Positions 116-39,788 of a stretch of 64,000 nucleotides of DNA are shown piece by piece (positions within the stretch are counted from its first letter, which is position 1; each line of letters begins with the position of its first letter). The notes below the pieces were generated by a model. The model did no database searches, was not told the DNA's origin, and was given only the letters and a program-made list of their open reading frames with translations. The DNA comes from an uncultured Vicinamibacteraceae bacterium (lineage in GTDB: Bacteria > Acidobacteriota > Vicinamibacteria > Vicinamibacterales > UBA8438): the NCBI GenBank assembly GCA_964507425.1, contig CAZDQD010000015.1, positions 1,071-65,070 on the forward strand, written 5' to 3'. A program made the position numbers and the translations under genes.

Positions 116-2146
116 ATGCGGCGACAATATCTGGTTTCGTTGGCGGTGATTACATTAGTGGGAGTCTTTAACCCGGTCGTGGGTGTCAACGCGCAGGACG
201 AAGACTGGAGTGGTTATCCAGCGACGGAATGGCCACTCGCGGGTGGGCACTTTGGTCAGACTCGTCACTCAACGTTGGATCAGATTACGCCAGACAACCT
301 AGAGCGGTTAGGCGGTGCGTGGGTGACTGAACTCGACGGTGGTGAAGTGACGCGGTCAACTGCTGTCGTGCAAGACGGTTTGTTATTCCTCAGCACCGGG
401 TTGGGACATCGAGCGTTCGATGCAACAACTGGGGAAGAGCGATGGCGCCACGATGCGCCGGTTGGTCGAATGAACAAGGGCGTTGCACTCGGTTCAGGTT
501 TAGTGTTTGCCGGATTGGGCGACGCCCGTTTGGTTGCGCTGGACCAGCAGACAGGCGAACGGGTTTGGGAACATTTGGTCGGTGTGGAAGGACAGGTCGG
601 GCAGTGGATCCCGGCGCCACCTACCTATGCTGATGGGTTGGTGATTACGGGCATGGCTAATGGTGACAGTTACCTGCGTGGTCGTGTTGTGGCTCTTGAT
701 GCGCTTACAGGTGAGCGCCGTTGGCTTTTTGAAGTCATTCCTCCGCCCGGCGCGTTTGGGTCGGAAACATGGCCCACCGATAGTGACGTTTGGAGGTGGG
801 GTGGAGGTGGAGTCTGGATGACTCCAACCGTAGACGTTGAGTTAGGCATGTTCTTTGTGGGAACGGGAAACGCGGTCCCCATGTGGGGCGGAGAACTGCG
901 CCCTGGCGATAACCTCTTTACAGCCTCGGTGGTGGCTCTTGACCTTTATACGGGTGAGTACAAGTGGCACCAGCAACTTGTGCATCACGAAATGTGGGAG
1001 CATGACCTCGCCACGCCATTGATTGTCTACGATGCGACAGTAGAGGGAGACACGCGGAAAGCTGTGGCCGCGATGCGGACGGACGGCTATCTTTTCATGC
1101 TTGATGCGGAAACAGGTGAACCTATTTATCCGATTGAGGAGCGTGAGGTTCCTCAAAATGATTTCTTGAATACGTCGCTGACGCAGCCGTTTCCCGTTGG
1201 GGCGGACAAGATTGGGCCTTACTGTGTGGATCCAGCAATGATTCCGGAAGGTTTTGAGGCCGGTTGTTACTACGACCCGATCGGACCGGATCAGCCGAAC
1301 GTGTTTATTCCGTACATGAATATGCGGTTTGCACCGATGTCCTATAGCCCGGTTACCGAATATTTTTATGGAACCTCCTGTGTATACCCACGATGGATTA
1401 AGCGCCCAGAAAATCCTTGGTTTTTTAGCAGTACGGCCGTTCGTGCGCCAGGATTGAGGCAATACGGCCTCCACGTGGCTATTGACAGCCGCACGAATCG
1501 AATTGCGTGGCAGCACCGTGTGCCTTATTCAGATTGCAATGGAAGCGGTGCTATGACGACGGCGAGTGGGTTGATGTTTCACACCGATGCGGATGGGAAC
1601 TTTGGCGCGTTCGATCAGCGAACTGGTGAGCGACTCTGGCAGTTTCAGACTGGCCAGATTGGCGTACCAGGGAGTAATGGATTGGGAGGCGGACCGGTGG
1701 TGACGTACGAGGTCGCGGGCGAACAATATTTGGCACTAACGATGAATCGTTTGGTGTGGGCATTCAAATTAGATGGGACGGTGCCGCCCCGGCCTGCACC
1801 GGAACGGCCGATCACGGTGTTACCGTTTCAAGGGCCGATTGTCGACACCGATACGATTGAGTTGAAGCGCGTAATCGTGCAGGACAATCAGAATATGCAA
1901 TGGCGCGACGAGTGGCACGACGAGTATGGTTTGACGCCGACACGAGCTTCCGTCACTTCAGGAACGCGGGTAACGTGGACGAATCCGACAGAACTTACCC
2001 ATACCATTGCTGCCCGGGATGGCTCCTGGGCAACTGGACCTATCGCTCCTGGTGATTCGGATTCTGTGGTAATCGATGTGGTGGGGGAACACGAGTATGT
2101 GTGTACTGACCATATGTGGACTATCGGGCAGCTCATCGTTGAATGA
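116..2146 (+). CDS. Secreted PQQ-type (quinoprotein) beta-propeller dehydrogenase with C-terminal cupredoxin domain
   Basis: Signal peptide; W-docking propeller repeats (DATTGEERW, DQQTGERVW, DALTGERRW); GGGVWMTPTVD, GTGN, RPGDNLFTASVVALD; C-terminal VTWTN...THT...YVCTDH cupredoxin pattern. Confidence 0.85.
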   Translation: MRRQYLVSLAVITLVGVFNPVVGVNAQDEDWSGYPATEWPLAGGHFGQTRHSTLDQITPDNLERLGGAWVTELDGGEVTRSTAVVQDGLLFLSTGLGHRAFDATTGEERWRHDAPVGRMNKGVALGSGLVFAGLGDARLVALDQQTGERVWEHLVGVEGQVGQWIPAPPTYADGLVITGMANGDSYLRGRVVALDALTGERRWLFEVIPPPGAFGSETWPTDSDVWRWGGGGVWMTPTVDVELGMFFVGTGNAVPMWGGELRPGDNLFTASVVALDLYTGEYKWHQQLVHHEMWEHDLATPLIVYDATVEGDTRKAVAAMRTDGYLFMLDAETGEPIYPIEEREVPQNDFLNTSLTQPFPVGADKIGPYCVDPAMIPEGFEAGCYYDPIGPDQPNVFIPYMNMRFAPMSYSPVTEYFYGTSCVYPRWIKRPENPWFFSSTAVRAPGLRQYGLHVAIDSRTNRIAWQHRVPYSDCNGSGAMTTASGLMFHTDADGNFGAFDQRTGERLWQFQTGQIGVPGSNGLGGGPVVTYEVAGEQYLALTMNRLVWAFKLDGTVPPRPAPERPITVLPFQGPIVDTDTIELKRVIVQDNQNMQWRDEWHDEYGLTPTRASVTSGTRVTWTNPTELTHTIAARDGSWATGPIAPGDSDSVVIDVVGEHEYVCTDHMWTIGQLIVE

Positions 2147-2172
2147 ATGATTGATGTGAGTCTCTCATCCTT

Positions 2173-2703
2173 ATGCGAATACGAGATATTTGGCCGGTCG
2201 TAGTGGTGTCATTGGTTCTGACACCGGTTGGGATGAGTGGTGATGAACTTCCCGCCGGTATTGTTGGTGTTTGGGATACGGGAGATGGTGCGCACGTAGA
2301 AATTTATCAACGAGATGGCAAATATCACGGCAAGTTTGTCCACTTTTATGATGAGCCACCGGCTGGCGGTGTCGATGCGAAGAATCCGAATCCCGCGTTA
2401 CGGGGACGGTCGCTGGTTGGTACTGACTTCATCCTCAACTTTGATTTTGTGGACAACAAGTGGAAGAACGGCCGTATCTATAATCCTGAAAATGGCAAAC
2501 AATATAAGGCTGATCTAGAACTAACGGATGGAGTCTTACATGTCAGAGGTTGGGTCCTGTTTCGTTTGCTAGGTCGGACCGTGAGGTGGGTACGGCTCGA
2601 TAAGGCGACGAGTCAACAATTTAAAGATGTTCCGCGTAGGTCGGTTTCCTTTAGTCAGCTTGTACGGCGTTTAGTAGCCACCCACACGGGCTGTAGTACT
2701 TAG
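2173..2703 (+). CDS. DUF2147-family exported protein
   Basis: Signal peptide; GVWDT...VEIY...DAKNPNPALRGRSLVG...WKNGRIYNPENGKQY...LHVRGW...GRTVRWVR matches the recalled DUF2147 pattern. Confidence 0.75.
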   Translation: MRIRDIWPVVVVSLVLTPVGMSGDELPAGIVGVWDTGDGAHVEIYQRDGKYHGKFVHFYDEPPAGGVDAKNPNPALRGRSLVGTDFILNFDFVDNKWKNGRIYNPENGKQYKADLELTDGVLHVRGWVLFRLLGRTVRWVRLDKATSQQFKDVPRRSVSFSQLVRRLVATHTGCST

Positions 2704-2726
2704 GAATCGTTTTATAGAGGTATTCC

Positions 2727-4676
2727 ATGCGACGAGTGTTACTTTCTGTGTTGGCAATAGCTTTCTTTTCGACTTTCAGTTCCGAAGCTCAGACTGTTCC
2801 GGTGGGTGAGTGGCACGCGTATGGTGCCGACGGTGCGAACAACAAATACTCACCACTTGATCAAATCACAGTGACTAATTTTACGGACCTCGAAATTGCC
2901 TGGCGGTGGTCGTCAATCACGACGGAGGTGACCGAGGAGCGTACAAACATCAATGCGGGTCTTTTTAAGGCAACACCTTTGATGGTTGGCGGGTTGGTTT
3001 ATGTGAGCACCGCGCTAGGGCAGGTGGCCGCATTATCCGCCGGTACAGGCGACCCAGTGTGGACATACGACCCGAGAAGTTACGATCGGCTTGAGAAGCC
3101 GGCAAACATTGGTTGGCAGCATCGGGGCGTGTCCTATTGGCGAGACAGTGAGGGAGATGACGCCAGGATTTTTATTGCGACTCACGATCAACGACTGATT
3201 GCCCTTGACGCAGACACCGGTGTTCCGAGTGCGGGGTTCGGTGCGAACGGAATTGTTGACTTGAGTGGCAGTCTTGGACGCCCGACGGATCGTGCACGTC
3301 TTACCCATTCATCGCCGGTCGCGATCGTGCGGAATACCGTGGTCGTTGGTAGTTCCCTTACCGACCAGACGACAACGCGAGAGGCTCCGCCTGGACATGT
3401 GCGGGCATTTGATGCCCGTACCGGTGCGATGAAGTGGATCTTTCACACGATTCCACAAGGTGATGAGTTCGGTGCTGATTCGTGGCAGAACGAGTCATGG
3501 CGTTACAGCGGTCATACCAATGTCTGGGGCAACATGGCAGTCGATGAAGAACTCGGGTATGTGTATCTTCCAATCAGTACGCCGACCAACGATTGGTATG
3601 GGGGAATGCGACCAGGCGACAATTTATTTGCTGAAAGTATCGTTTGTGTTGACGCTGAAACTGGTGAACGCGTGTGGCATTTTCAGGCTGTGCATCACGG
3701 CCTTTGGGATTATGACTTTCCGACAGCTGGGAACCTCCTCGACATCACGGTTGATGGTCGGACTATCAAAGCGATTGCTCAGCCAAGTAAACAGGCTTTC
3801 ACGTACGTATTTAATCGAGCGACTGGTGAGCCCGTGTGGCCGATCGAGGAGCGTCCGGTGCCTTCGGGAAACGTTCCTGGCGAGTGGTATGCGCCAACCC
3901 AGCCGTTTCCGACGAAGCCACCTCCATTCGATCTTCAGGGTATTGAGATCGACGACCTGGTTGATTTCACGCCGGAGCTTCGTGAGGAGGCGATAAGAAT
4001 TGCGAGCCGTGCGCAGTTGGTTCCAATGTTTTATCCGCCAGATGTGCGTGGGGAGGCTAAACCCATCATCCAGTCACCCGGTCCAGGTGGAGGTGTTAAT
4101 TGGCCTGGTGCAGCGGCTGACCCGGAAACAGGGTTGTTATTCGTCCCGTCGCAAACACGTCTGAGAGCGGTAGAACTTGTGAAATATGAAGCGCCAGCCA
4201 CGGTCGGTTATTTTACGGATCCGTGGGCTGTTCCAGTTCCGGGTCCGCAAGGCCTTCCGTTGGTCAAGCCGCCCTACAAACGGGTGACGGCTATTGACTT
4301 GAATACCGGTACGCATGCGTGGATGAGTCCGCACGGCGATGGACCGAGAAACCATCCTGCGTTGAGGCACCTCAATCTTCCAGCATTGGGCGGTCACAGT
4401 GGTATGCATGGTGGAGGTGCACTCGTAACCAAAACCCTTCTAATCGTGAATTCAGGTGGGCGCTACATGGTCGACGAGGCGGAGGGCGCGCGGACAATGT
4501 CTGCGTATCACAAAGCGAATGGCGAGTATCTGGGCTCCGTGATGTTACCGTCCGTCCCGAACGGCAATCCGATGACATATCTTCACGAGGGGCGTCAGTA
4601 CGTTGTGGTGGCCGTCGGTGGCGGAGGTGGTAGTGCTGCGCCGGAATTGATTGCGCTGGCGTTACCGGAACAATAG
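2727..4676 (+). CDS. Secreted PQQ-dependent dehydrogenase, glucose/quinate (mGDH-like) family without membrane anchor
   Basis: EWHAYG..KYSPLDQI, PPGHVRAFDARTG, GDNLFAESIVCVD, HHGLWDYD, WPIEERPVP, PTQPFPTKPPPF, GGVNWPG. Confidence 0.88.
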   Translation: MRRVLLSVLAIAFFSTFSSEAQTVPVGEWHAYGADGANNKYSPLDQITVTNFTDLEIAWRWSSITTEVTEERTNINAGLFKATPLMVGGLVYVSTALGQVAALSAGTGDPVWTYDPRSYDRLEKPANIGWQHRGVSYWRDSEGDDARIFIATHDQRLIALDADTGVPSAGFGANGIVDLSGSLGRPTDRARLTHSSPVAIVRNTVVVGSSLTDQTTTREAPPGHVRAFDARTGAMKWIFHTIPQGDEFGADSWQNESWRYSGHTNVWGNMAVDEELGYVYLPISTPTNDWYGGMRPGDNLFAESIVCVDAETGERVWHFQAVHHGLWDYDFPTAGNLLDITVDGRTIKAIAQPSKQAFTYVFNRATGEPVWPIEERPVPSGNVPGEWYAPTQPFPTKPPPFDLQGIEIDDLVDFTPELREEAIRIASRAQLVPMFYPPDVRGEAKPIIQSPGPGGGVNWPGAAADPETGLLFVPSQTRLRAVELVKYEAPATVGYFTDPWAVPVPGPQGLPLVKPPYKRVTAIDLNTGTHAWMSPHGDGPRNHPALRHLNLPALGGHSGMHGGGALVTKTLLIVNSGGRYMVDEAEGARTMSAYHKANGEYLGSVMLPSVPNGNPMTYLHEGRQYVVVAVGGGGGSAAPELIALALPEQ

Positions 4677-4724
4677 TACTTACAGTCTGATTTCTTTGGT
4701 CGTAAAGCTTGTAGGAGGCCGTGA

Positions 4725-9692: not shown

Positions 9693-9723
9693 ACGGCAAT
9701 TTGTGGTTGGGATCTAACGAGCA

Positions 9724-10491: not shown

Positions 10492-10493
10492 CA

Positions 10494-23018: not shown

Positions 23019-23201
23019 CGGCACACTGTGCTGCAAACAAATTGTCTGTATGTTGAGGTCTGACGGATAGCTGACTACTTACGGGTGAATCCTTAATCCT
23101 GACAAGACACGGGCTGTTCATGGCTACGTCGTGTGGTCAAGTGCCAGTAATATTCGATCTTAACGTGAGTGGTAATAGCTTTTGTTACTCGCTGATTGAG
23201 G

Positions 23202-27054: not shown

Positions 27055-28044
27055 ATGCCGAGGTTTTTACTGGTGGTGTGGGTGTTAATGGCTGTCGTGG
27101 TGACAGGAGTTGCACCCGTCGATGCTCAAACGGACATTCCTAAGACCCCATGGGGGCAGCCCGACTTGCAGGGTGTTTGGGACTTTCGGACGATTACACC
27201 CATGCAACGTCCTGAGCAATACGGGGACAGAGAGTTTTTGACTGAAGAGGAGGCCGCAGATCTCGATCAAGCGGCAATTGATAGAGAAGAACGGTTATGG
27301 AACCAAGCTGCCGAGCGCACTGAGGCGGGAGGCAACGTTGATAGGCGCGGCGCCGGTCAGGCACCGGGCTCATATAATCAGTTTTGGATCGATGTCGGTA
27401 CGAATACGGTCGACACAAGGAGAACTTCGTTGATTGTCGACCCACTCAATGGTCGCTATCCGTCGTTAACCCCCGCGGGCCAGCGTCGTGCGGCGGAGGG
27501 AAGCGCGAGACGCGATCGGGCAGATTCGTTTACAGACTTTAGTGCCGGTGTGCGCTGTATTTTAGGCTTCAATGCGGGTCCTCCTTTTACTCCGAGCGCA
27601 TATAACAACAACATGCAATTGTTTCAGACCCCAGACACCGTCGCGATTATGACGGAAATGGTGAATACATCTCGAGTTATCCCCCTTGACGGAAGACCTC
27701 ATTTAGACGCGGATGTATTGCAGTGGTCGGGTGATTCGAGAGGTTATTGGGAGGGCGATACGCTAGTTGTCGAAACGAGAAACTTTGATGCTAAGCGTCG
27801 GTGGAGGAATTCAAGTCAACAAATGAGGTTGGTAGAAAAATTCACTCGTGTTGACGCTGATACCTTAGAGTATGAATTCACGATTGCCGACCCTGATACT
27901 TGGGTTTCAGCGTGGACTGCCAATGTGCCTTTACGATTGAATCCCGATCCCGTTTTTGAATTTGCCTGCCATGAAGGAAATTATTCGATGCCGGTCATGT
28001 TGGGAGGGGCTCGGCTGGAGGAGCAAGAGGCCGCCGGGAGATAG
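27055..28044 (+). CDS. Exported conserved hypothetical protein (TPWGxPDxQG...EFACHEGN family)
   Basis: GGAGG upstream of ATG 27055; signal peptide; homologous to the C-terminal half of 31607..33376. Confidence 0.75.
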   Translation: MPRFLLVVWVLMAVVVTGVAPVDAQTDIPKTPWGQPDLQGVWDFRTITPMQRPEQYGDREFLTEEEAADLDQAAIDREERLWNQAAERTEAGGNVDRRGAGQAPGSYNQFWIDVGTNTVDTRRTSLIVDPLNGRYPSLTPAGQRRAAEGSARRDRADSFTDFSAGVRCILGFNAGPPFTPSAYNNNMQLFQTPDTVAIMTEMVNTSRVIPLDGRPHLDADVLQWSGDSRGYWEGDTLVVETRNFDAKRRWRNSSQQMRLVEKFTRVDADTLEYEFTIADPDTWVSAWTANVPLRLNPDPVFEFACHEGNYSMPVMLGGARLEEQEAAGR

Positions 28045-31590: not shown

Positions 31591-31606
31591 GCGGGAGAGC
31601 AGCTGT

Positions 31607-33376
31607 ATGCATAAGAGAGTGTTGAAACTTACGTACACGACATCGGTGATCTTATTTGCGTTGACGGCTACGCCGGCAACGGTTGCAGCTGAAAGTATTC
31701 ACCATGTGCATGTGACATCTTCTAATGCCACTGAGGCGGTCCGTTGGTACGCTCGACACCTGCCTTGCGAGCCTCTGGTGGACAGGACCGATGGTGTTGA
31801 CTGTGGTGGCACGGAAGTAATCTTTGACGCGCGGCCAAGTCGGGGGACGAGTCAGCGAACTGGCATCGACCACCTCTCGTTTTCATTTACGAATGTAACG
31901 GAAAAAATGGCCGAACTTGAATCGGTTGGTGTTGGCGGTGCTGGGGTTCGACTGCAACGGTTTGAGGGAGGAGACACAGTTCGCGAAACCGAAACTTTTA
32001 GCAAACAAGCCTTTATTTTTGATCCGTGGGGAACACGGATCGAGTTGGTTGAAGATGCACAGCAGTTAGGGTTTCATCATGTGCATCTAAGCGCAACGGA
32101 CCCAAAGGCAACGTTGGAGTGGTATGCCGACCGCTTTGGTGGAGAAGCCGGCGCGTATGATGATGTGTTGGAGGGTGTCAAATTTGATGACCTCTGGTTG
32201 TTAGTAGATCTCCACACGGAAGGTGTGCCGGCATCCACAGCCGGACGATCTATAGACCATATTGCTTTTCAGGCTGATGAAATCGACGAACGATTAGATC
32301 GGCTTCGAAGTGATGGCATTGAGATCCTTGAGGAACTCATAGTTCCTGAGGGTGCTCGCACTTCTGCCCGGAGGGCTTTTGTTGGTGGACCCAATAATGT
32401 ACGCCTTGCAGTTGTCGAACCTGGTTTCGCGGGTGTTGATGTGGTGACGTTTGTCGCTGCTGCAGATACGGGAGGGGAGTCTTATGCCGTGGTTCGGACT
32501 CCATGGGGCGATCCTGATTTTCAGGGTGTGTGGACCGGTGATGCAGCACATGGTATTCCGCTGGAGCGACCAGCAGACGCTGTAGCGACGGAAGAGCTAA
32601 CTCCGGAAGAAGCTCTTGCGCGTCGTGAACGGGGAACGCTTGGCAGTATCTGGGGCTATGAGTCTGAGTGGCGGGATACGACACTTGGGTATACGAGAGC
32701 CGGAGTTTCACAACAGGTTGCGATGGTAGTCGACCCTCCGAGTGGCAAACTGCCTGCGTTAACGACGTCGGCAGAACGACGTATGGCTGAGGCTCCTGGA
32801 GGTCGGCGAATTCCTGCCGGCCCTGAGGACAATAGTCCGTGGGTGAGGTGCATCACCCGTGGTCCGATCCCAATGCCACAGGTCTACAACAATGGTCTTC
32901 AAATCGTACAGGGGCCAGGTTTCGTCTCAGTGCAACGAGAGATGGTGCACGAAACACGGCTTATACCGACAGATGGACGTCCACACTCAGATTCGCGTTT
33001 AACCTCGTATCTTGGCGATGCGGTCGGTCAGTGGGAGGGCGACACGCTGGTTGTGGAGATTACGAACTTTAACGGGAAAGCGCCCTTTCCGTCCGAGCGA
33101 TTTGCGGGATTGCTGGGCTCTGGTTATGGGGCCAGTAAAGAGCTCACGCTCACCGAACGCTATACACGCACGGGCCCTGAGACGTTGCTCTACGAATTCA
33201 CTTTTGATGACCCATCCACGTGGGATCGTCCTTGGACGGGTAGATATACGTTTGTTCGCGACGACAGCCAGTATGAGCTTGTTGAATACGCATGTCACGA
33301 AGGTAACTACGGAATGTTTAACATTTTGAGTGGTGCTCGTTCTCGTGATCGTGAATCCACAGAGACGGGTCGTTGA
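31607..33376 (+). CDS. Exported fusion: tandem VOC (glyoxalase-like) domains plus TPWG...ACHEGN domain
   Basis: IHHVHV, GIDHLSF, DPWGTRIELVE, FHHVHL, IDHIAF, GPNNVRLAVVE; then RTPWGDPDFQGVW...VEYACHEGNY. Confidence 0.75.
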   Translation: MHKRVLKLTYTTSVILFALTATPATVAAESIHHVHVTSSNATEAVRWYARHLPCEPLVDRTDGVDCGGTEVIFDARPSRGTSQRTGIDHLSFSFTNVTEKMAELESVGVGGAGVRLQRFEGGDTVRETETFSKQAFIFDPWGTRIELVEDAQQLGFHHVHLSATDPKATLEWYADRFGGEAGAYDDVLEGVKFDDLWLLVDLHTEGVPASTAGRSIDHIAFQADEIDERLDRLRSDGIEILEELIVPEGARTSARRAFVGGPNNVRLAVVEPGFAGVDVVTFVAAADTGGESYAVVRTPWGDPDFQGVWTGDAAHGIPLERPADAVATEELTPEEALARRERGTLGSIWGYESEWRDTTLGYTRAGVSQQVAMVVDPPSGKLPALTTSAERRMAEAPGGRRIPAGPEDNSPWVRCITRGPIPMPQVYNNGLQIVQGPGFVSVQREMVHETRLIPTDGRPHSDSRLTSYLGDAVGQWEGDTLVVEITNFNGKAPFPSERFAGLLGSGYGASKELTLTERYTRTGPETLLYEFTFDDPSTWDRPWTGRYTFVRDDSQYELVEYACHEGNYGMFNILSGARSRDRESTETGR

Positions 33377-33421
33377 ATTAGCGAAACCTGTTCTTCTTTC
33401 GACGAAATCCAGGAGAAATCT

Positions 33422-35380
33422 GTGCGGCGATCAGTAGCTGTCGTAGTTTTACTTTGCGGAGCCCCGCTCACTTTTGCGCAGGAGACTGCCACCGATATGG
33501 TCGAGTGGCGTTACGTTGGTTCAGATCAAGGCGCATCGAAGTACTCCCCCCTTACGGACATTAATCGTTCGAATATTGATCGCTTGGAGGTGGCGTGGAC
33601 CTGGGAACCTAACGAATTGCCGAACATGGAATATCAAACGCGGCCGGGAAGTTTTGAAGCCATGCCGTTAATGATCGAAAACGTGCTCTATTTGTCCACG
33701 ATGTACACAAAGGTGGTCGCGCTCGACGCGGATACAGGGGAACAATTGTGGATGTTTGACCCGGAGGCTTATCGTACGGGTCCGTTGGGGGCTGGTGTTG
33801 GCGGGTATAAACATCGTGGGGTTGCTACTTGGTCTGACGGGAACTCGATGAAAGTGTTTCTTAATAGCCGAGACTCGTTGTACGCGCTCGATGCGACAAG
33901 CGGTGCGCTGATTCCCACGTTTGGTGTTCAGGGAAAGGTCAAATTGACTGATGGTTTTGACCGTGAGGTGACCTACGACGAATTTGATCAAACATCTCCT
34001 CCGGTCGTGTACGAGGATTTAGTGATTGTTGGGAGCCGAGTGCCAGATCAGCTCCAACATCGGTTTGACACTCCTGGTTCGGTGCAGGCGTTTGATGTGC
34101 ATACCGGAGAACGGCGATGGGTGTTTTATACGATTCCTCAAACCAATGATGAATATGGCGCCGATACGTGGGAGGATGGCTCGTGGCGGTATACGGGACA
34201 CGCTAATGTCTGGGGGCTAATGTCGTTGGATGAAGAGCGGGGCTTGTTGTATTTACCGACGAGCACTCCGAGTAGCGACTACTATGGCGGTCGTCGACTC
34301 GGTGCGAATTTGTTCGCCGAGTCGATTGTATGTCTAGATGCGAGCACTGGGGAGCGTCTGTGGCATTTTCAGGGCGTTCATCATGGGCTTTGGGATTATG
34401 ACTTTACCGCTGCTCCGAACCTGATGACGTTGGCGGTTGATGGTCGTCAAATCGATGCTGTTGCAGAGGTGTCGAAGCAAGGGTTTACCTATGTGTTTGA
34501 TCGCGTGACAGGTGAACCAGTGTGGCCAATTGAAGAACGCCCGGTCGATACAGAGACAGACGTTCCAGGAGAGATTCCCTACCCGACCCAACCTTTTCCG
34601 ACAAAACCACCACCGTTTGCTGTTCAGGGAATATCGCTAGATGATGCGAATGACTTAACACCGGAGATCCATCGGTTGGCTCTTGAGGAAATGCAGACAT
34701 ACAGGCTCGGCCCATTGTTTACGCCTCCGAGTCTCCGTGGCACGTTACAGCGACCATCGGCGGGTGGAGGGGCAAATTGGGGTGGAGCAGCTCTCGATCC
34801 GGAGACCAACTATCTGTACGTAAGGTCTTCAGAACGTTTGACGCCGAACCAAATTTGTAAGACGCCTGAAGGGACAACGGGGGTTGACCTGGAGTACACG
34901 AACAACTGTCCACGTGGAGGTTCGCAAGGGATATTTACAATGTTGCCTGGTTATGTGGCCGCTGAACGTAGACAATTGGGCCCCATTCCCCTAATAAAGC
35001 CGCCGTATGCGTTTCTAGTGGCAATTGACCTGAACGTGGGGGAAATTGCGTGGAAGGTTCCTTTTGGTGAAGGGAGCCGCCTCGTAAGAAACCATCCGCT
35101 CTTACGTGGCACAACCGGCTTGCCTGAACGCTTAGGCACCGTTGGTAACAATGGACCGATGGTCACGGGGGGTGGATTAGTGTTTATGGGAGGCGGCGAC
35201 CCTTATCTTTATGCGTTTGATGCCGAAACAGGTCAAGAGCTTGGTCGGCATGCGACGGAGTTTAGGACCACGGGAAATCCGATGACCTATAGGTCACGTG
35301 GCGGACGACAGTTTATTGTGATTGCGACAGGAGCTGGACCTGATGCTTCACTTGTTGCGTTTGCCTTGCCCAACGAGTGA
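33422..35380 (+). CDS. Secreted PQQ-dependent dehydrogenase, mGDH-like
   Basis: SKYSPLTDINRSN, FEAMPL, HHGLWDYD, WPIEERPV, GGANWGG. Confidence 0.88.
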   Translation: MRRSVAVVVLLCGAPLTFAQETATDMVEWRYVGSDQGASKYSPLTDINRSNIDRLEVAWTWEPNELPNMEYQTRPGSFEAMPLMIENVLYLSTMYTKVVALDADTGEQLWMFDPEAYRTGPLGAGVGGYKHRGVATWSDGNSMKVFLNSRDSLYALDATSGALIPTFGVQGKVKLTDGFDREVTYDEFDQTSPPVVYEDLVIVGSRVPDQLQHRFDTPGSVQAFDVHTGERRWVFYTIPQTNDEYGADTWEDGSWRYTGHANVWGLMSLDEERGLLYLPTSTPSSDYYGGRRLGANLFAESIVCLDASTGERLWHFQGVHHGLWDYDFTAAPNLMTLAVDGRQIDAVAEVSKQGFTYVFDRVTGEPVWPIEERPVDTETDVPGEIPYPTQPFPTKPPPFAVQGISLDDANDLTPEIHRLALEEMQTYRLGPLFTPPSLRGTLQRPSAGGGANWGGAALDPETNYLYVRSSERLTPNQICKTPEGTTGVDLEYTNNCPRGGSQGIFTMLPGYVAAERRQLGPIPLIKPPYAFLVAIDLNVGEIAWKVPFGEGSRLVRNHPLLRGTTGLPERLGTVGNNGPMVTGGGLVFMGGGDPYLYAFDAETGQELGRHATEFRTTGNPMTYRSRGGRQFIVIATGAGPDASLVAFALPNE

Positions 35381-35419
35381 TTCGCGTTGTTTTTGGAAAA
35401 GAATGATTTAAAACGCTAG

Positions 35420-35983
35420 GTGTATAGTAGTCGTATGACAAGCGCGCGGTTCGGAAGGTCGTTGGGCTTTGTTTTGATCTTGGTGTTCTGCCTCGGCGGT
35501 ATTGAGTTGTCACTTGGTGGAGAAGGGTTTTCCGGGACTGTTGTGGGCAGGGCGCAGACAGACACCGTTGCTGCTGGCGGCCGACTTTACCGCCAAAAGG
35601 CGGACTGTCAGGCGTGTCACGGATGGGCTGGTGATGGTCGAAAGATGGACAGCCAGATGCCGGACGGTGCGAACCTCCGTGAAAGCACACTAGAGCGCGA
35701 GCAACTCGTTTTCGTCATCAAGTGTGGTTTACCGGGACGTGGCATGCCTGCTTTTGATCGGCGTGCCTATGCCGATGAACGATGCCTTGGACGAACACAT
35801 GATGACCTTGAGCGGATGGGGTTAGAGTTATTCGATCCAGCGGCGACGTTACAGAATAGGGAAGTTGAACGTCTAGCCGATTTTTTGTACGAGAAAGTTA
35901 TCGGTCAAGGTCCGATGGACAACCAGAAGTGTATTGAGTTCTGGGGTGAAGAGGTGGACGCTTGCCGAGAATTTCCAAACTAG
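35420..35983 (+). CDS. Monoheme cytochrome c with four additional cysteines
   Basis: Signal/TM segment; CQACH; GRGMPAF axial Met; extra Cys in IKCG, ERCLG, QKCIE, DACRE. Confidence 0.8.
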   Translation: MYSSRMTSARFGRSLGFVLILVFCLGGIELSLGGEGFSGTVVGRAQTDTVAAGGRLYRQKADCQACHGWAGDGRKMDSQMPDGANLRESTLEREQLVFVIKCGLPGRGMPAFDRRAYADERCLGRTHDDLERMGLELFDPAATLQNREVERLADFLYEKVIGQGPMDNQKCIEFWGEEVDACREFPN

Positions 35984-36032
35984 TCGAGTCGTCTACTTTT
36001 CTGCTGTCGTAAGCGTCTTCGGAAGTCCACGA

Positions 36033-37802
36033 CTATTCATCGAGTGCGAAGACGAATAGGTAGCTTGAGTTTTCGAGTTGATCCCAGTTCACGGGGTGCA
36101 GGTGTCTGCCGCTCGTCTGGACCGCTATGTACTGCTTAGGTCCGATTGCGTACGTGACGGGGGCTCCCTTGAGAGGTGTTCCGACATTGAACCGCCAGAG
36201 TTCCTGCAGTGTCTCGTCGTTGTAGGCGACCACCCAGCCATCCTGAAGCGCGCTGAAGACTAGTCCCCCCGCCGTTACTGTCGCGCCGGAACGAACCTCA
36301 ATGTCAGTGACGACCTTTGCAAGTACCTCATGGTCGACTGCGTCGACTGCTGTGATGGAGCCGTAGTACAGCTCACTTGTGTACTCACGCCGTTCACTCG
36401 CCTGATTGTCGACGTTGCCCTCTGGTCCAACCGACGCAACAGCCGCTCCATTTTGCGAGAAACACCCTTCTGTGCCAACGCCATAAGCAATTCCCTTGTC
36501 AGGGTTAAAAGCTGTCGGTTGGTGAGCCACGCCTCCGTGCCAGGTCGGACACGCGCGCTTCATGGTGTCTCGGTCAGCCCGCAACGCACGCGCTTCTTCG
36601 TTGTAAATCTGTACATCAAGATTTGCGTCGTACTCGAGTGGCATACCTGTTTGTGGGTTGATGCCAGCGGTCCAATTGAGTTCGTTGACGTACTGACCAG
36701 CTCTGATGAACGAACCGTCGTTTCGATCGACGGTATAAAAAAAGCCGTTACGAGCATAATGCGACACCACGTTTCGCAATTGACCCTCGATGGTGAGGTC
36801 ATAAAGCAGATGGATCCCAACTTCGTCGTAGTCCCATGAATCATTTGGCGTGTATTGGAAATGCCATCTACGCTCACCAGTTTCGATGTCTAGTGCGACT
36901 GCGGAGTTTGTGTATAGGTTGTCGCCGGGACGAAATTCTGGGTCATAGATTGGGTACGGATTTCCCGTACCGAAAATGTACAGCTTATTAACTGGGTCGT
37001 ACGAGCCGGTTTGCCAGACGCCGCCACCGCCGGTTTTCCACGCGTTGTGGTCGTCTCTCCAGGTCTCGCTTCCTGGCTGGCCGGGCTCTGGAACGGTATA
37101 CCAGCGCCAGAGTTCATTTCCATTTTCGATGTCGAGTGCTGCGACCCATCCACGTGTGCCACCGTCACCAGCACCGTTCTGGACAAGAACTTTTCCATCG
37201 GCGACCAGTGGTGCAGTTAGAAAACGCTCTCGACGTCCGAACTCAGTTACGCCTGCCACCTCGACATCCCAAATGATTTCGCCGTCGTCTCGATCAATGG
37301 CAACCACGCGACCGTCTGGAAGATTCGAGATTACCTTGTCTTCCCAAAGTGCAATTCCTCTTGACCTGGACGTATTACCTTCATGGTCAACACCGGGATC
37401 GGCTATCCACACAAATTTCGCGTGGTCTGGGGCACGAGCGTCAATCTTGTAGACAGTTCCCCAGCCGTCAGCCGTGTACATGAAACCATTGTCGATTAAC
37501 GGATTGAGTTCAGCTTCAGGACCGTTCTGACCGGTGTCTTGCATGCCGCCAATAGCAAGTGCCCACACCATTCGAAGGTTGCTGACGTTGTCTCGATTGA
37601 TCTGGGTTAACCGCGAATATCTGTTTGAGCCGTAGTCACCGTTCATGAGGAGCCAGTTTTGAGGCTCGTTCGCGGCGTTTTCTAGGCGTTCTTTATTTAC
37701 GGTTAGCGAGTACTGACCAGTAAGAACTATTGTCGATGCAGCCAGAATGGCAGCAATGAGAAATGTGCTGATTTCGCCGTGAGAACGGTAATGCTGACGC
37801 AT
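36033..37802 (-). CDS. Secreted PQQ-type dehydrogenase, alcohol-dehydrogenase-like scaffold
   Basis: GGAGG RBS; NWLLMNGDYGSNRYSRLTQIN, GGGVWQTGSYD, GTGNP, YTPNDSWDYDE. Confidence 0.85.
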   Translation of the reverse strand: MRQHYRSHGEISTFLIAAILAASTIVLTGQYSLTVNKERLENAANEPQNWLLMNGDYGSNRYSRLTQINRDNVSNLRMVWALAIGGMQDTGQNGPEAELNPLIDNGFMYTADGWGTVYKIDARAPDHAKFVWIADPGVDHEGNTSRSRGIALWEDKVISNLPDGRVVAIDRDDGEIIWDVEVAGVTEFGRRERFLTAPLVADGKVLVQNGAGDGGTRGWVAALDIENGNELWRWYTVPEPGQPGSETWRDDHNAWKTGGGGVWQTGSYDPVNKLYIFGTGNPYPIYDPEFRPGDNLYTNSAVALDIETGERRWHFQYTPNDSWDYDEVGIHLLYDLTIEGQLRNVVSHYARNGFFYTVDRNDGSFIRAGQYVNELNWTAGINPQTGMPLEYDANLDVQIYNEEARALRADRDTMKRACPTWHGGVAHQPTAFNPDKGIAYGVGTEGCFSQNGAAVASVGPEGNVDNQASERREYTSELYYGSITAVDAVDHEVLAKVVTDIEVRSGATVTAGGLVFSALQDGWVVAYNDETLQELWRFNVGTPLKGAPVTYAIGPKQYIAVQTSGRHLHPVNWDQLENSSYLFVFALDE

Positions 37803-37904
37803 GCCTGTTTCCTCCGTAGAACTGTTGGTCGGTATAGCTTATAACGGTTTAAGGCTTGACCTCGGTATACTAATTCTCGTGCTCGAGATGGAGGTCGAGA
37901 AAGT

Positions 37905-39788
37905 ATGCGTTTAACTTGGATTTCTGCAGTTATCTGCTTGTTCATGTCTGTGTTGTTGGTCCAGTGCGGTGGTGGATCGGAAATAATGGAGAGTGAGACC
38001 CCTAGCACGGTCGTGGAGCATACCGACTGGCCTATGTATCGAGGTAATTATTCGGGTACGGGATATTCAGAGCTTTCTGATGTCTCAATTTTGAACGTCG
38101 GCACGCTATCACGTGCGTGGGTTTACGATTTGAATCGAAGGAATCCTGGTTCCGAGGATCGCGGACCAAACTCCCAGGTAACACCCATAGTTGTGGACGG
38201 TGTCATGTATTTGCCTGCAGCTGATCGAGTTGTCGCAATTGATCCTGATTCTGGGCAGGAGATCTGGGCGCACCTGTTAGATGACGCAATGGGGGCGCCG
38301 TCGCGTCGTGGTGTTGCCTACTGGCCAGGGGATGGTGATTTCGATGCGCGCATCATATTTGTAACGGGATCACATCTTCGTGCATTGGACGCAAGTACGG
38401 GGGACCCTGTCGTTGAATTTGGCGACGACGGAGCGATTGCACTCGGCGTGCCATATAACTCTGTTCCACTCGTTTATCGTCATGTTGCAGTGGTTGGAGC
38501 GAACACTCCACGCGGTGAGATTGGCGGTATTGGTAATGCGCGTGCCTACGACGTTCGGACAGGTGAAATGCTCTGGGAATTCGACTCGGTCGCTCAGCCA
38601 GGTGACGTGGGACACGACACGTGGGACGGAGACAGTTGGCGGGATCGGCTGGGGGCGAATGCCTGGCCATTTTATTTTACGTTGGATGAAGCGCGAGGTG
38701 TTCTGTACCTCCCGTTGGCCTCACCAATTCCTGGTTATTACGGTGGTGACCGTGCTGGGGCGAACCTTTATGGAAATTCTGTGGTGGCAGTGACTGCGGA
38801 GACGGGTGAGTACCTGTGGCATTTCCAGACGATCCACCATGATTTATGGGATGCGGACCCACCGGCTCCGCCGGTTCTGTTTGATATGGAACGTGACGGG
38901 GCGACGGTTCCAGCGCTCGGTGTGACGACGAAATCTGGATACCTCTATATCCTGAATCGAGAAACAGGTGCGGTGCTCTATGACGTAGAAGAACGGCCGG
39001 TCAGCGCGAGTGATGTTCCGGGTGAAGTCACATACCCAACCCAACCGATTCCGGCTGTTACACCGTCGATGGGTCGCGTCTCCTATAGTGCAGAGGACTT
39101 GGTTACAGCAAATGAGACTACGGACGAGCACGCTGCGGCCTGTTCCGCACTGGTAGAGAGTTTAGGTGAGGTCGTTAATGCAGGTCCCTTTACACCGTGG
39201 GCATATCGCCGTGAGAATGGTAATCCCCGGACAACATTGAACTTTCCTGGAGGCGTTGGTGGCCCAAACTGGGGTGGGGCAGCGTTCGACCCGACGTCTG
39301 GGTATATTTTCGTGATGTCTATGGATGTCGGTGCATTGGGTTGGATGGTTGATGCGGATGACGAGACCGCCGGCCCATATCGCAAGGAAACACCGAGACC
39401 GGCTAGCTTTGAAGTAGACATTGCTGGTACTCGCATGCCGTGCCAAAAACCACCATGGGGCCAATTAACGGCGGGTGACAGTGCAACGGGAGGTATTGCC
39501 TGGCGTGTTCCATTGGGTATCACTGACTGGCTGCCTGATGGCAAACAAGGCACGGGTCGCCCGGGCCGGGCGGCTGCGGTCGTTACAGGCGGCGACTTAC
39601 TTTTTATTGCTTCGACAGACGATAATCGTTTCCGTGCTGTCCAGGCGACTACTGGGCAGGAACTGTGGGTTGATCAGCTGGACGGCCGGGGCAATGCAAA
39701 TCCGATGACGTATCGAGGAAACGACGGCCGTCAATACATTGTCATCACTGCGACGGATACGGTTGTTGCGTATGCGCTACCCGATTAG
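37905..39788 (+). CDS. Secreted PQQ-dependent dehydrogenase, mGDH-like, possible lipoprotein
   Basis: DWPMYRG, SQVTPIVVDG, HHDLWDAD, PTQPIP, GGPNWGG, CQKPPWG. Confidence 0.85.
   Translation: MRLTWISAVICLFMSVLLVQCGGGSEIMESETPSTVVEHTDWPMYRGNYSGTGYSELSDVSILNVGTLSRAWVYDLNRRNPGSEDRGPNSQVTPIVVDGVMYLPAADRVVAIDPDSGQEIWAHLLDDAMGAPSRRGVAYWPGDGDFDARIIFVTGSHLRALDASTGDPVVEFGDDGAIALGVPYNSVPLVYRHVAVVGANTPRGEIGGIGNARAYDVRTGEMLWEFDSVAQPGDVGHDTWDGDSWRDRLGANAWPFYFTLDEARGVLYLPLASPIPGYYGGDRAGANLYGNSVVAVTAETGEYLWHFQTIHHDLWDADPPAPPVLFDMERDGATVPALGVTTKSGYLYILNRETGAVLYDVEERPVSASDVPGEVTYPTQPIPAVTPSMGRVSYSAEDLVTANETTDEHAAACSALVESLGEVVNAGPFTPWAYRRENGNPRTTLNFPGGVGGPNWGGAAFDPTSGYIFVMSMDVGALGWMVDADDETAGPYRKETPRPASFEVDIAGTRMPCQKPPWGQLTAGDSATGGIAWRVPLGITDWLPDGKQGTGRPGRAAAVVTGGDLLFIASTDDNRFRAVQATTGQELWVDQLDGRGNANPMTYRGNDGRQYIVITATDTVVAYALPD

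What the first reader, a model, noticed from the sequence alone, without database searches (positions are those of the whole stretch)
116..39788. Eight exported quinoprotein dehydrogenases in 40 kb, wired to different electron carriers
Seen: full-length propeller dehydrogenases at 116, 2727, 15616, 24920(-), 28051, 33422, 36033(-) and 37905, all with signal peptides. One has a fused cupredoxin, one a fused cytochrome c, one an adjacent cytochrome c, and one is followed by the heme-motif DUF1592 operon; mqnB/mqnD sit in the middle. No pqqA-E gene is in the window. Known: quinoproteins oxidise substrates in the periplasm and hand electrons to cytochromes, azurin or quinones. Inference: a modular periplasmic oxidation platform for diverse dissolved organics, possibly using scavenged PQQ or another cofactor.
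Basis: partly seen in the sequence, partly recalled or inferred. Interest (0 to 1): 0.72.

Follow-up and report, generated by a model that had tools for sequence, protein, structure and literature searches.

The report
Quinoprotein gene swarm, PQQ scavenged
The eight exported PQQ-type dehydrogenase genes are real, but they are only the densest patch of a 64-plus-copy family expansion in a marine acidobacterium that cannot make PQQ and apparently imports it, a pattern whose two halves have each been published.

Summary
All eight ORFs are eight-bladed PQQ-propeller dehydrogenases with N-terminal export signals. One carries a C-terminal cupredoxin-like domain and one an N-terminal cytochrome c. 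The window has no pqq gene.

The genome is a 3.0 Mb marine Vicinamibacterales MAG with 64 full-length PQQ dehydrogenase genes plus fragments. A complete genome of the same genus has at least 84, and nearly the whole family is expanded. The eight belong to different clades, and only four keep their place in that genome. The "adjacent cytochrome c" travels with Q7, not Q6, across the order. The DUF1592 operon and mqnB/mqnD are unrelated neighbours.

pqqB, pqqC and pqqE are absent here and in the complete same-genus genome, which keeps a truncated pqqE relic. That relic lies beside a PqqU-like TonB-dependent transporter found in 18 of 19 family genomes. So PQQ is most likely scavenged, not replaced.

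Both halves are already published: marine Acidobacteria with up to 70 PQQ dehydrogenases (ISME J 2025), and PqqU in aquatic Vicinamibacteria that lack PQQ synthesis (Sci Adv 2025).

New here are the link between the two, the pqqE relic, the conserved Q7–cytochrome pair, and a co-expanded uncharacterised exported family of about 65 copies.

The parts
116..2146 (+). Q1: divergent ADH-like PQQ propeller (about residues 36-554) with a C-terminal cupredoxin-like domain (about residues 575-676, nt 1838-2146). The active-site motif is W-E-H-D, not D-x-D.
   Evidence: PF01011 E 2e-76. Weak Copper-bind/Cupredoxin_1 hits. Homologues carry PF13473/PF00127. H629, C663 and H666 are nearly invariant. AF2 pLDDT 87.7 with an all-beta C-terminal domain. 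Metatranscriptome contig at 1533-2153.
2173..2703 (+). DUF2147 small exported protein between Q1 and Q2. Its role is unknown.
   Evidence: PF09917 E 1e-26. Not found near the Q genes in relatives.
2727..4676 (+). Q2: soluble GDH/quinate-like PQQ dehydrogenase without the membrane anchor. Sister of Q3 and of C19:37174-39171.
   Evidence: PF01011 E 2e-183. TIGR03074 388 bits, below the 832 cut-off, matching only from model position 148. Counterparts of Gcd D354, W404, T424, D466 and K493 are present. Tree.
15616..17589 (+). Q3: soluble GDH-like PQQ dehydrogenase, a lineage-specific insertion upstream of the DUF1592 operon.
   Evidence: PF01011 E 5e-182. Absent between HIBADH and DUF1592 in the same-genus genome G124.
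17700..21427 (+). DUF1592 (with an N-terminal cytochrome c domain, 2 CxxCH) and DUF1552 gene pair. A neighbour of Q3, not a conserved partner.
   Evidence: Pfam hits. Heme motifs. Conserved in G124 at 74-84% identity without Q3.
23196..24727 (+). MqnB-like and MqnD (futalosine-route menaquinone synthesis). Housekeeping neighbours.
   Evidence: PF01048 and PF02621. The pair is conserved in G110, G126 and G129 without any orthologue of the eight within about 40 kb.
24920..26974 (-). Q4: PedH-like PQQ-ADH with an N-terminal cytochrome c domain and D-W-D. The ORF extends to 27115 but the true start is probably later.
   Evidence: PF01011 and PF13442. CxxCH at residue 102. Best solved relatives are PedH 6ZCV/6ZCW, E 5e-90. 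TIGR04528 532 of 650 bits and TIGR03075 468 of 480. 78% orthologue in place in G124.
27055..28044 (+). TPWG_A: exported ~330-aa protein of an uncharacterised family (conserved TPWG..PDLQG and ACHEGN motifs), 7 bp upstream of Q5.
   Evidence: No Pfam hit. About 65 paralogues in the genome. The TPWG_A-Q5 pair is kept in G124. AF2 pLDDT 78 with a weak FABP/lipocalin-like barrel match.
28051..29883 (+). Q5: sorbose-dehydrogenase-like PQQ dehydrogenase (D-L-D), member of a clade with about 10 close paralogues.
   Evidence: PF01011. 4MH1 E 3e-119 and 4CVB E 2e-118. Tree. Transcript contigs in all four RNA runs.
29998..31590 (+). Tannase/feruloyl-esterase family hydrolase between Q5 and the second TPWG gene.
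   Evidence: PF07519 E 3e-114. 77% orthologue in place in G124. Transcript contigs.
31481..33376 (+). Glyoxalase/VOC domain fused to a TPWG-family domain (TPWG_B), 46 bp upstream of Q6.
   Evidence: PF00903. 35% identity to TPWG_A over 350 residues, E 9e-55. Absent at this site in G124.
33422..35380 (+). Q6: soluble GDH-like PQQ dehydrogenase, a lineage-specific insertion upstream of the cytochrome c.
   Evidence: PF01011 E 1.5e-189. 77% paralogue on C103. Orthologue next to Q7 in only 3 of 58 related loci.
35420..35983 (+). Monoheme cytochrome c (187 aa), convergent with Q7 and its conserved neighbour.
   Evidence: PF13442. One CxxCH. Orthologue of at least 55% identity, convergent and just past Q7, in 48 of 80 Vicinamibacterales loci. 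Transcript contigs.
36033..37802 (-). Q7: ADH-like PQQ dehydrogenase with D-Y-D, conserved across the order.
   Evidence: PF01011. 351 related loci, the best 80 at 73-87% identity. Alignment to 1YIQ and PedH shows the PQQ/metal residues. Transcript contigs in all four RNA runs.
37905..39788 (+). Q8: divergent GDH-like PQQ dehydrogenase with a lipoprotein-like signal, divergent from Q7.
   Evidence: PF01011 E 2e-159. 72% orthologue in place in G124. Orthologue beside Q7 in 21 of 80 loci.

Best explanation
The window is the densest patch of a lineage-wide expansion of periplasmic PQQ-type quinoprotein dehydrogenases in a marine Vicinamibacterales (Acidobacteriota) bacterium. It is not a purpose-built island.

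The eight genes come from different branches of the family. Four are soluble, anchor-less glucose-dehydrogenase-like enzymes (Q2, Q3, Q6, Q8). One is sorbose-dehydrogenase-like (Q5). One is PedH-like with an N-terminal haem domain (Q4). One is an order-wide conserved alcohol-dehydrogenase-like enzyme (Q7) with a conserved convergent cytochrome c neighbour. One is fused to a cupredoxin-like domain (Q1).

Inferred mechanism: each apo-enzyme is exported and loaded in the periplasm with PQQ. The cell cannot make PQQ and takes it up through a PqqU-like TonB-dependent outer-membrane transporter. Each enzyme also takes a metal, Ca2+ or a lanthanide, and oxidises some alcohol, sugar or aldehyde of dissolved organic matter. 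It then passes electrons to a fused or free c-type cytochrome or cupredoxin, and from there to the respiratory chain.

Shown here: family membership, export signals, conserved PQQ-site residues, genome-wide and family-wide copy number, absence of pqq genes, presence and conservation of the PqqU-like gene, synteny, and presence of transcripts.

Inferred: PQQ loading, choice of metal, substrates and electron routes.
For: Family and active site: (PF01011 for all eight). Searches show conservation of the stacking Trp, the Arg109 and Arg/Lys331 equivalents, and the catalytic Asp.

Expansion: 64 full-length copies plus about 6 fragments in 3.0 Mb. At least 84 in the complete same-genus genome G124 (capped). 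17 of 19 family genomes give 70-301 first-look candidates, against 3-104 in other families of the order. The eight are scattered over the paralogue tree.

Synteny: only Q4, Q5, Q7 and Q8 are in place in G124, and only cyt c-Q7-OadB in G126.

No PQQ synthesis: pqqC, pqqB and pqqE are absent from the genome. The positive control is a pqqABCDE operon in family genome G044. pqqC is absent from G124 and from 14 of 19 family genomes. No intact pqqE was found in any of the nine pqqC-negative genomes tested, which include G124. G124 keeps a pqqE relic that lacks the radical-SAM CxxxCxxC region, about 200 bp from the PqqU-like gene.

Importer: C126:26203-28521(-) matches E. coli PqqU at 29% identity over 689 residues, E 6e-78. 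The next best transporters reach only about E 2e-10. It has Phe at Y99 and Arg at R365. A single-copy orthologue is present in 18 of 19 family genomes.

Transcription: marine metatranscriptome contigs, mostly at 99% identity or more, lie on Q1, Q2, Q5, Q6, the cytochrome c and Q7.

Literature: PMC11996626 reports marine Acidobacteria MAGs with up to 70 PQQ dehydrogenases. PMC12124388 reports PqqU in aquatic Vicinamibacteria without PQQ synthesis.
Against: The local density is above random expectation, and half of the cluster is syntenic within the genus, so some local co-regulation cannot be excluded.

The MAG is 94% complete in 166 contigs, so absence of pqq genes in this genome alone is not proof.

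Arg304 of the PqqU signature is ambiguous in the alignment. A 2026 preprint (10.64898/2026.07.10.737718) warns that lanthanide transporters are often mis-annotated as PqqU.

No enzyme here has been shown to bind PQQ.

The RNA evidence consists of low-depth contigs, which may contain DNA.
Confidence: 0.8

Rival explanations
1. One reading: the 40 kb is a dedicated, modular periplasmic oxidation platform. Its eight enzymes would be deliberately wired to different electron carriers (cupredoxin, fused haem, adjacent cytochrome, DUF1592 haem protein, menaquinone) and act as a functional unit.
For: Eight copies in 40 kb exceed random placement of 64 copies. Q4, TPWG_A, Q5, tannase, cyt c, Q7 and Q8 are syntenic in the same-genus genome. 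Short same-strand gaps (7-46 bp) suggest co-transcription of TPWG_A-Q5 and of TPWG_B-Q6-cyt c. Two different fused redox domains are real.
Against: Similar clusters occur on C19 and C28, and in G124 about 16 copies lie within 140 kb. The eight are not each other's closest relatives, apart from Q2 and Q3. Q3 and Q6 are absent from these sites in G124, and the Q1-Q2 half is elsewhere. DUF1592/DUF1552 and mqnB/mqnD are conserved without quinoproteins. The cytochrome c belongs with Q7. Only 4 of 64 copies have a fused haem, 3 have the cupredoxin-like tail, and about 12 have any neighbouring CxxCH ORF.
Confidence: 0.12
2. 'Empty' quinoproteins: in this PQQ-non-producing lineage the propellers no longer use PQQ. 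They would bind a different cofactor or act non-catalytically, for example as binding proteins.
For: No pqq genes. NCBIfam has a family named acido-empty-quinoprotein (short name acido_non_PQQ), which Q4 resembles at 532 bits. None of the eight has the vicinal Cys-Cys. The Glu177-equivalent metal ligand varies among the paralogues.
Against: The stacking Trp, the Arg109 and Arg/Lys331 equivalents, and the catalytic Asp are conserved in nearly all 64 copies. The four GDH-like enzymes also match E. coli Gcd at W404, D466 and K493. A PqqU-like importer is conserved family-wide, and in G124 it sits beside a pqqE relic. Family members that do have pqqABCDE carry the same expansion. No score reaches the TIGR04528 cut-off.
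Confidence: 0.05
3. Assembly gap: the organism does make PQQ, and the pqq operon simply lies in the unassembled ~6% of the MAG.
For: The MAG has 166 contigs at 94% completeness. Five of 19 family genomes have pqqC.
Against: The complete single-contig genome of the same genus lacks pqqC and has only a truncated pqqE relic. Other complete family genomes (G126, G132, G133, G134, G073) lack pqqC, and all of them also lack pqqE. Four genes of about 3 kb would all have to be missing.
Confidence: 0.05

Closest known systems
Marine Acidobacteria MAGs with up to 70 putative lanthanide-PQQ dehydrogenases (Tara Oceans; ISME J 2025, PMC11996626)
   Same: Same habitat and phylum, and the same scale of expansion (64 or more here). 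The same dominant classes appear, GDH-like and sorbose-DH-like, mostly with D-x-D.
   Different: I found no mention of PQQ supply, gene clustering, redox partners or synteny in that paper. It reads D-x-D as lanthanide binding in GDH-like enzymes too, whereas E. coli Gcd, which I know as a Ca/Mg enzyme, also has D466-M-D468.
E. coli apo-glucose dehydrogenase Gcd with the PqqU importer (Sci Adv 2025, PMC12124388)
   Same: A PQQ non-producer with PQQ enzymes and a PqqU-type TonB-dependent transporter. That paper lists aquatic Vicinamibacteria among PqqU carriers without PQQ synthesis. Q2, Q3, Q6 and Q8 share about 30% identity with Gcd and its D466 and K493 residues.
   Different: E. coli has one 8-bladed PQQ dehydrogenase by my recollection (not counted here), against 64 or more here. 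The GDH-like enzymes here lack the N-terminal membrane/quinone domain, so they need a soluble acceptor. Arg304 of the PqqU signature is uncertain in the alignment.
PedH/ExaF lanthanide-dependent alcohol dehydrogenases and type II quinohaemoprotein ADHs (PDB 6ZCW, 1KV9, 1YIQ)
   Same: These are the best solved relatives of Q4 and Q7. Both have D-x-D, an Asn261 equivalent, the stacking Trp and an Arg331 equivalent.
   Different: Neither has the vicinal Cys-Cys. Asp replaces the Glu177-type metal ligand. The haem domain of Q4 is N-terminal rather than C-terminal. Scores fall below the TIGR03075 cut-off.
Sorbose/sorbosone-type PQQ dehydrogenases and DepA (PDB 4MH1, 4CVB, 7WMD)
   Same: Q5 matches over its full length at E 3e-119 to 1e-114.
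   Different: Q5 has D-L-D. I did not check the motif in those structures. The ISME J 2025 paper treats 4CVB as Ca-dependent. Q5 belongs to a clade of about 10 close paralogues in one genome.
XoxF-XoxG type pairing of a PQQ dehydrogenase with its own cytochrome c
   Same: Q7 and a monoheme cytochrome c are conserved neighbours across the order.
   Different: The two genes are convergent, not co-transcribed. The cytochrome has no close solved relative. No XoxJ-like gene was seen, and electron transfer is untested.

Membership tests
Eight-bladed PQQ quinoprotein dehydrogenase superfamily (Pfam PF01011) | Profile match above the gathering score over the propeller | tested here: met
   All eight score 203-632 bits against a cut-off of 26.7.
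Eight-bladed PQQ quinoprotein dehydrogenase superfamily (Pfam PF01011) | PQQ-contacting and catalytic residues: stacking Trp, Arg109 equivalent, Arg/Lys331 equivalent, catalytic Asp303 equivalent | tested here: met
   Seven of eight have all of them. Q1 has Lys at the Arg109 position, Thr at the Arg/Lys331 position, and E-H-D at the catalytic site. The GDH-like four match Gcd W404, D466 and K493.
Eight-bladed PQQ quinoprotein dehydrogenase superfamily (Pfam PF01011) | PQQ actually bound and dye-linked dehydrogenase activity | not testable with these tools
   Needs expression and reconstitution.
PQQ-dependent dehydrogenase, methanol/ethanol family (NCBIfam TIGR03075) | Score at or above the curated cut-off of 480 bits | tested here: not met
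   Q4 468, Q7 408, Q5 317, Q1 266 bits.
PQQ-dependent dehydrogenase, methanol/ethanol family (NCBIfam TIGR03075) | Vicinal Cys-Cys disulphide next to PQQ | tested here: not met
   No CC dipeptide in any of the eight. Only 3 of the 64 paralogues have it in the aligned loop.
Membrane-bound PQQ dehydrogenase, glucose/quinate/shikimate family (NCBIfam TIGR03074) | Score at or above 832 bits, including the N-terminal transmembrane/quinone domain | tested here: not met
   Q2, Q3, Q6 and Q8 score 347-404 bits, and the matches start at model positions 141-149. They have a signal peptide instead of the Gcd membrane domain.
Acido-empty-quinoprotein group A (NCBIfam TIGR04528) | Score at or above 650 bits | tested here: not met
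   The best is Q4 at 532 bits.
Lanthanide-dependent PQQ-ADH (XoxF/PedH/ExaF type) | Extra Asp two residues after the catalytic Asp (D-x-D) | tested here: met
   Q4 D-W-D, Q5 D-L-D, Q7 D-Y-D. The GDH-like four also have it, but so does E. coli Gcd (D-M-D), so the motif is not diagnostic in that clade. Q1 has E-H-D.
Lanthanide-dependent PQQ-ADH (XoxF/PedH/ExaF type) | Activity dependent on a lanthanide ion | not testable with these tools
   Needs metal reconstitution assays.
Type II quinohaemoprotein alcohol dehydrogenase | C-terminal cytochrome c domain after the propeller | tested here: not met
   The haem domain of Q4 is at residues ~92-161, before the propeller.
PqqU (TonB-dependent PQQ importer), for C126:26203-28521(-) | Signature residues: aromatic at Y99, R304 and R365 (PMC12124388) | tested here: inconclusive
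   Phe at position 99 and Arg at 365 are conserved in the five orthologues read correctly. A conserved Arg (QMFR[A/V]T) lies 3-4 columns from R304, at a gap edge. Overall E 6e-78 to E. coli PqqU.
PQQ biosynthesis (pqqABCDE) | PqqB, PqqC and PqqE encoded in the genome | tested here: not met
   No hit for TIGR02111. The best TIGR02109 hit is 52.6 bits against a cut-off of 381. tblastn with the family's own PqqB/C/E finds nothing significant.

The most novel reading that the evidence does not exclude
The uncharacterised exported TPWG...ACHEGN family has about 65 copies here and at least 73 per genome in most of the family, against 0-6 in other families of the order. It could be a dedicated partner class of the quinoproteins, for example a lipocalin/FABP-like carrier. 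Such a carrier might deliver hydrophobic substrates, or PQQ or metal, to the dehydrogenases. Together the two families would form a two-part module behind this lineage's oxidation of marine dissolved organic matter, all of it dependent on PQQ made by other microbes.
Probability: 0.15. Interest if true: 0.65.

Novelty: new member of a known kind. Interest (0 to 1): 0.4.

Why it matters
These bacteria are widespread in seawater: the region is held near-identically in 20 metagenome runs, the 16 with a study label spanning 8 studies. About 4% of the genome is devoted to periplasmic PQQ dehydrogenases. Yet this genus cannot make the cofactor.

If that holds, a sizeable route of oceanic dissolved-organic-carbon oxidation depends on PQQ released by other microbes, and possibly on trace lanthanides. 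That is a testable cross-feeding dependency.

The genes also offer untested enzyme architectures: a cupredoxin-fused quinoprotein, one with an N-terminal haem domain, and soluble GDH-like enzymes.

The caveat on D-x-D in the GDH clade matters for published estimates of lanthanide use in the ocean.

As a genomic phenomenon, however, the expansion and the scavenging strategy have each already been reported.

Tried and rejected
1. DUF1592/DUF1552 as an electron-accepting partner of Q3. Rejected: the operon is conserved in G124 directly after HIBADH, without Q3.

2. mqnB/mqnD as a functional link to quinone reduction. Rejected: the pair is conserved in G110, G126 and G129 with no orthologue of the eight within about 40 kb.

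3. The cytochrome c at 35420-35983 as the partner of Q6. Comparative data tie it to Q7 instead. Use by Q6 through co-transcription is not excluded.

4. The pqqE-like hit at the end of contig C132. Rejected as PqqE: 52.6 bits against 381, 31% identity, and no pqqBCD upstream.

5. D-x-D as proof of lanthanide use in Q2, Q3, Q6 and Q8. Rejected as diagnostic because E. coli Gcd has D-M-D.

6. Fold search of the whole Q1 model. It returned only propeller matches, so it gave no separate test of the cupredoxin domain.

7. Fold search of the TPWG model. It gave only weak FABP/lipocalin-like matches (best E 1e-3, TM about 0.48 on the target), so no function can be assigned.

8. Solved-structure search for the cytochrome c found no informative relative.

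9. My first permutation test of TPWG-PQQ adjacency let random placements overlap PQQ genes and was uninformative. The corrected version is.

10. Literature searches for 'acido-empty-quinoprotein' and for a fused cupredoxin-PQQ enzyme found nothing relevant.

Full report
**Observation.** The window encodes eight proteins that match Pfam PF01011, the eight-bladed PQQ dehydrogenase propeller, at E 9e-60 to 1.5e-189. Each begins with a positively charged stretch followed by a hydrophobic segment, and most have an AxA-like cleavage site. Q8 has a lipoprotein-like LLVQC|GGG. This is a reading of the sequence, not a SignalP result.

Q4 carries one CxxCH and a PF13442 cytochrome c domain, at its N-terminus. 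The last 130 residues of Q1 give only weak cupredoxin hits, below cut-off (Copper-bind E 0.004). However, many ~675-aa homologues carry precomputed Cupredoxin_1/Copper-bind hits. His629, Cys663 and His666 are nearly invariant. The AlphaFold2 model (pLDDT 87.7) has a confident all-beta C-terminal domain.

A monoheme cytochrome c follows Q6, DUF1592/DUF1552 follow Q3, and MqnB-like/MqnD lie in the middle. No pqq gene is in the window.

**Genome context.** The window is C15:1071-65070 of a 3.0 Mb assembly in 166 contigs, 94% complete. Titles of related loci place it in marine Vicinamibacterales, Acidobacteriota. The stretch 33422-39788 is held near-identically by 20 seawater or marine metagenome runs, the 16 with a study label spanning 8 studies.

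A profile built from the eight finds 64 full-length paralogues plus about six fragments at contig ends. By my arithmetic that is about 4% of the genome. Eight in 40 kb is still more than random placement of 64 copies gives: the null mean of the densest 40 kb was 3.6 and the maximum 7 in 2000 trials. But the family is clumped everywhere. C19 has 6-7 copies in 39 kb and C28 has 4 in 13 kb.

The expansion is family-wide. Seventeen of 19 genomes of the same family give 70-301 first-look candidates, against 3-104 in other families of the order. A complete single-contig genome of the same genus (G124, 5.2 Mb) has at least 84 copies, and scoring there was capped.

**What the eight are.** NCBIfam places Q2, Q3, Q6 and Q8 nearest the membrane glucose/quinate dehydrogenase family. 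The matches start only at model position ~145, so the membrane/quinone domain is missing, and scores are 347-404 against a cut-off of 832. Q1, Q4, Q5 and Q7 are nearest the methanol/ethanol family or the 'acido-empty-quinoprotein' model. All are below their cut-offs.
- Q5 matches sorbose dehydrogenase 4MH1 at E 3e-119.
- Q4 matches PedH at E 5e-90.
- Q7 aligns to 1YIQ and PedH with the PQQ/metal residues in place.

In an alignment of all 64 paralogues, the stacking Trp, the Arg109 and Arg/Lys331 equivalents and the catalytic Asp are nearly universal. None of the eight has the vicinal Cys-Cys. Seven of the eight show D-x-D, and Q1 has E-H-D. E. coli Gcd, which I know as a Ca/Mg enzyme, also reads D466-M-D468. 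So the motif cannot be used as a lanthanide marker in the GDH-like clade. It remains the accepted marker for the ADH-like Q4, Q5 and Q7.

On the paralogue tree the eight are dispersed. Only Q2 and Q3 are close, and they group with a copy on C19. The nearest relatives of Q5, Q6 and Q8 are on other contigs.

**Is it a unit?** I compared 80 kb around the MqnD orthologue in four complete family genomes. G124 (same genus) has this order: HIBADH, DUF1592, DUF1552, Ank, MqnB, MqnD, Q4, TPWG_A, Q5, tannase, cyt c, Q7, Q8, OadB. Q3 is missing before DUF1592. The glyoxalase-TPWG_B gene and Q6 are missing before the cytochrome. The Q1-to-ArsP half is elsewhere. G126 keeps only cyt c-Q7-OadB, and G110 and G129 keep only MqnB/MqnD.

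Q7 has 351 related loci in Vicinamibacterales, the best 80 at 73-87% identity. The cytochrome c orthologue lies convergently just past Q7 in 48 of those 80 loci. Q8 lies beside it in 21, OadB in 33 and Q6 in 3.

So the cytochrome is Q7's conserved neighbour. DUF1592 and the mqn genes are bystanders, and Q3 and Q6 are recent arrivals. Genome-wide, only 4 of 64 copies have a fused haem domain, 3 have the cupredoxin-like tail, and about 12 have any CxxCH ORF nearby. Most copies must therefore use a shared acceptor pool.

**Cofactor supply.** TIGR02111 (PqqC) finds nothing in the genome. The best TIGR02109 (PqqE) hit is an unrelated radical-SAM gene at 52.6 bits against a cut-off of 381. As a positive control, the same PqqC model finds 7 of 121 Acidobacteriota genomes, including two of this family. 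One of them, G044, has a full pqqABCDE operon. tblastn with those proteins finds nothing significant in the genome.

Within the family, pqqC is present in 5 of 19 genomes. It is absent from the complete genomes G124, G126, G132, G133, G134 and G073. No intact pqqE was found in any of the nine pqqC-negative genomes tested, which include G124.

G124 retains a pqqE relic. It covers residues 56-361 in two reading frames, no frame contains the CxxxCxxC radical-SAM motif, and no pqqA-D lies nearby. The frameshift could be a long-read sequencing error. The N-terminal truncation is not.

The relic lies about 200 bp downstream of a TonB-dependent transporter gene. Its orthologue in this genome is C126:26203-28521(-). 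That protein matches E. coli PqqU at 29% identity over 689 residues, E 6e-78, far above any other transporter in the genome. It has Phe at Y99 and Arg at R365. A conserved Arg lies at a gap edge near R304. It is single-copy in 18 of 19 family genomes.

A 2026 preprint warns that lanthanide transporters are mis-annotated as PqqU when the binding residues are missing. Here two of three signature residues are clearly present, and the pqqE relic adds an independent link to PQQ. I conclude that PQQ is scavenged.

**Expression.** Four marine metatranscriptomes hold contigs, most at 99% identity or more, on Q7 and Q5 (all four runs). They also cover Q1 (including the cupredoxin-like part), Q2, Q6, the cytochrome c, both TPWG genes and the tannase. 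No contigs lie on Q4 or MqnB/MqnD, and almost none on Q3. Depth is low and contigs show presence only.

[quoted passage not shown] PMC12124388 (Sci Adv 2025) reports PqqU in aquatic Vicinamibacteria, which lack PQQ synthesis. In the passages I searched, neither paper connects the two facts, and neither describes clustering, partners or synteny.

The finding is therefore a new instance of a known phenomenon, with some added detail:
- PQQ auxotrophy of the most quinoprotein-rich lineage, with a pqqE relic in the genus.
- The conserved Q7-cytochrome pair.
- The caveat on D-x-D in the GDH clade.

**A second expanded family.** The ORFs directly upstream of Q5 and Q6 share a ~330-aa exported domain (35% identity, E 9e-55) with no Pfam hit. 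The genome has about 65 copies. More than 8000 database relatives exist, and the few that are named are called hypothetical or uncharacterized.

The family is expanded only in this bacterial family. There are at least 73 copies per genome in 12 of 18 family genomes searched, and 0-6 in other families of the order. It is low in the two family genomes that also have few quinoproteins. Its genes lie next to quinoprotein genes more often than chance: 5 within 150 bp against 0.75 expected, P about 0.001. The model (pLDDT 78) has a C-terminal barrel with weak FABP/lipocalin-like matches. Its function is open.

**Verdict.** Novelty: a new member of a known kind. Interest is moderate.

Noticed in passing
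window 27055-28044 and 32405-33376; a third copy runs off the window start on the minus strand (C15:3-1259); about 62 more across the genome: An uncharacterised exported ~330-aa family with conserved TPWG..PDLQG and ACHEGN motifs and an invariant Cys305-His306. It has no Pfam hit and about 65 copies here. It is co-expanded with the quinoproteins only in this bacterial family and is enriched next to them (5 within 150 bp against 0.75 expected). The model shows a weak FABP/lipocalin-like barrel.
   Followed up: partly
L112 (G124:C1:2783000-2799000) 8517-9438 minus strand, beside the PqqU-like gene at 9639-11921: The complete same-genus genome keeps a pqqE relic. The N-terminal ~55 residues with the radical-SAM Cys motif are gone, there is one frameshift, and no pqqA-D is nearby. 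The relic lies about 200 bp downstream of the PqqU-like transporter gene. It looks like a fossil of lost PQQ synthesis.
   Followed up: yes
own genome C126:26203-28521 (minus strand), outside the window: A PqqU-like TonB-dependent transporter with an extra N-terminal CarboxypepD_reg domain. In a multiple alignment the position of E. coli K274 reads Glu. The Sci Adv 2025 paper suggests that variant could allow co-transport of a metal with PQQ. In the pairwise alignment the same position reads Lys, so this is unsettled.
   Followed up: partly
window 1838-2146 (Q1 C-terminal domain): Across 39 homologues His629, Cys663, His666, Trp668 and Gln672 are at least 90% conserved, while the canonical axial Met position is not. 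Gln672 could be a stellacyanin-like axial ligand. The PQQ-propeller-cupredoxin fusion is common in metagenomes, and a few relatives add a cytochrome c domain.
   Followed up: partly
E. coli K-12 gcd (L105), compared with window Q2, Q3, Q6 and Q8: E. coli Gcd, which I know as a Ca/Mg enzyme, has D466-M-D468. The D-x-D motif used in ocean surveys to call lanthanide dependence is therefore not diagnostic in the glucose-dehydrogenase-like clade.
   Followed up: yes
own genome, contig ends (C4:1, C25:7891, C43:1, C58:1, C117:2, C144:1, C19:2, C149:13912): Many quinoprotein genes are cut by contig ends. The assembly apparently breaks at paralogues, so the count of 64 is a lower bound and real clusters may be larger.
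   Followed up: no
own genome, about 25 ORFs of 400-490 aa (for example C29:21101-22546, C47:17517-18914, C15:68073-69473): A further set of smaller beta-propeller ORFs gives weak matches (24-100 bits) to the quinoprotein profile. They may be BamB/PQQ_2-like repeat proteins and were not examined.
   Followed up: no
window 39804-43627 (minus strand): OadB, a biotin carrier and a carboxyltransferase, which look like a Na+-translocating decarboxylase set, are conserved next to Q7 and Q8. OadB is present in 33 of 80 related loci.
   Followed up: partly
window 29998-33376: A tannase/feruloyl-esterase gene and a glyoxalase/VOC domain fused to the TPWG domain sit between Q5 and Q6, and both have transcript contigs. 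This hints at aromatic ester substrates, but nothing was tested.
   Followed up: no
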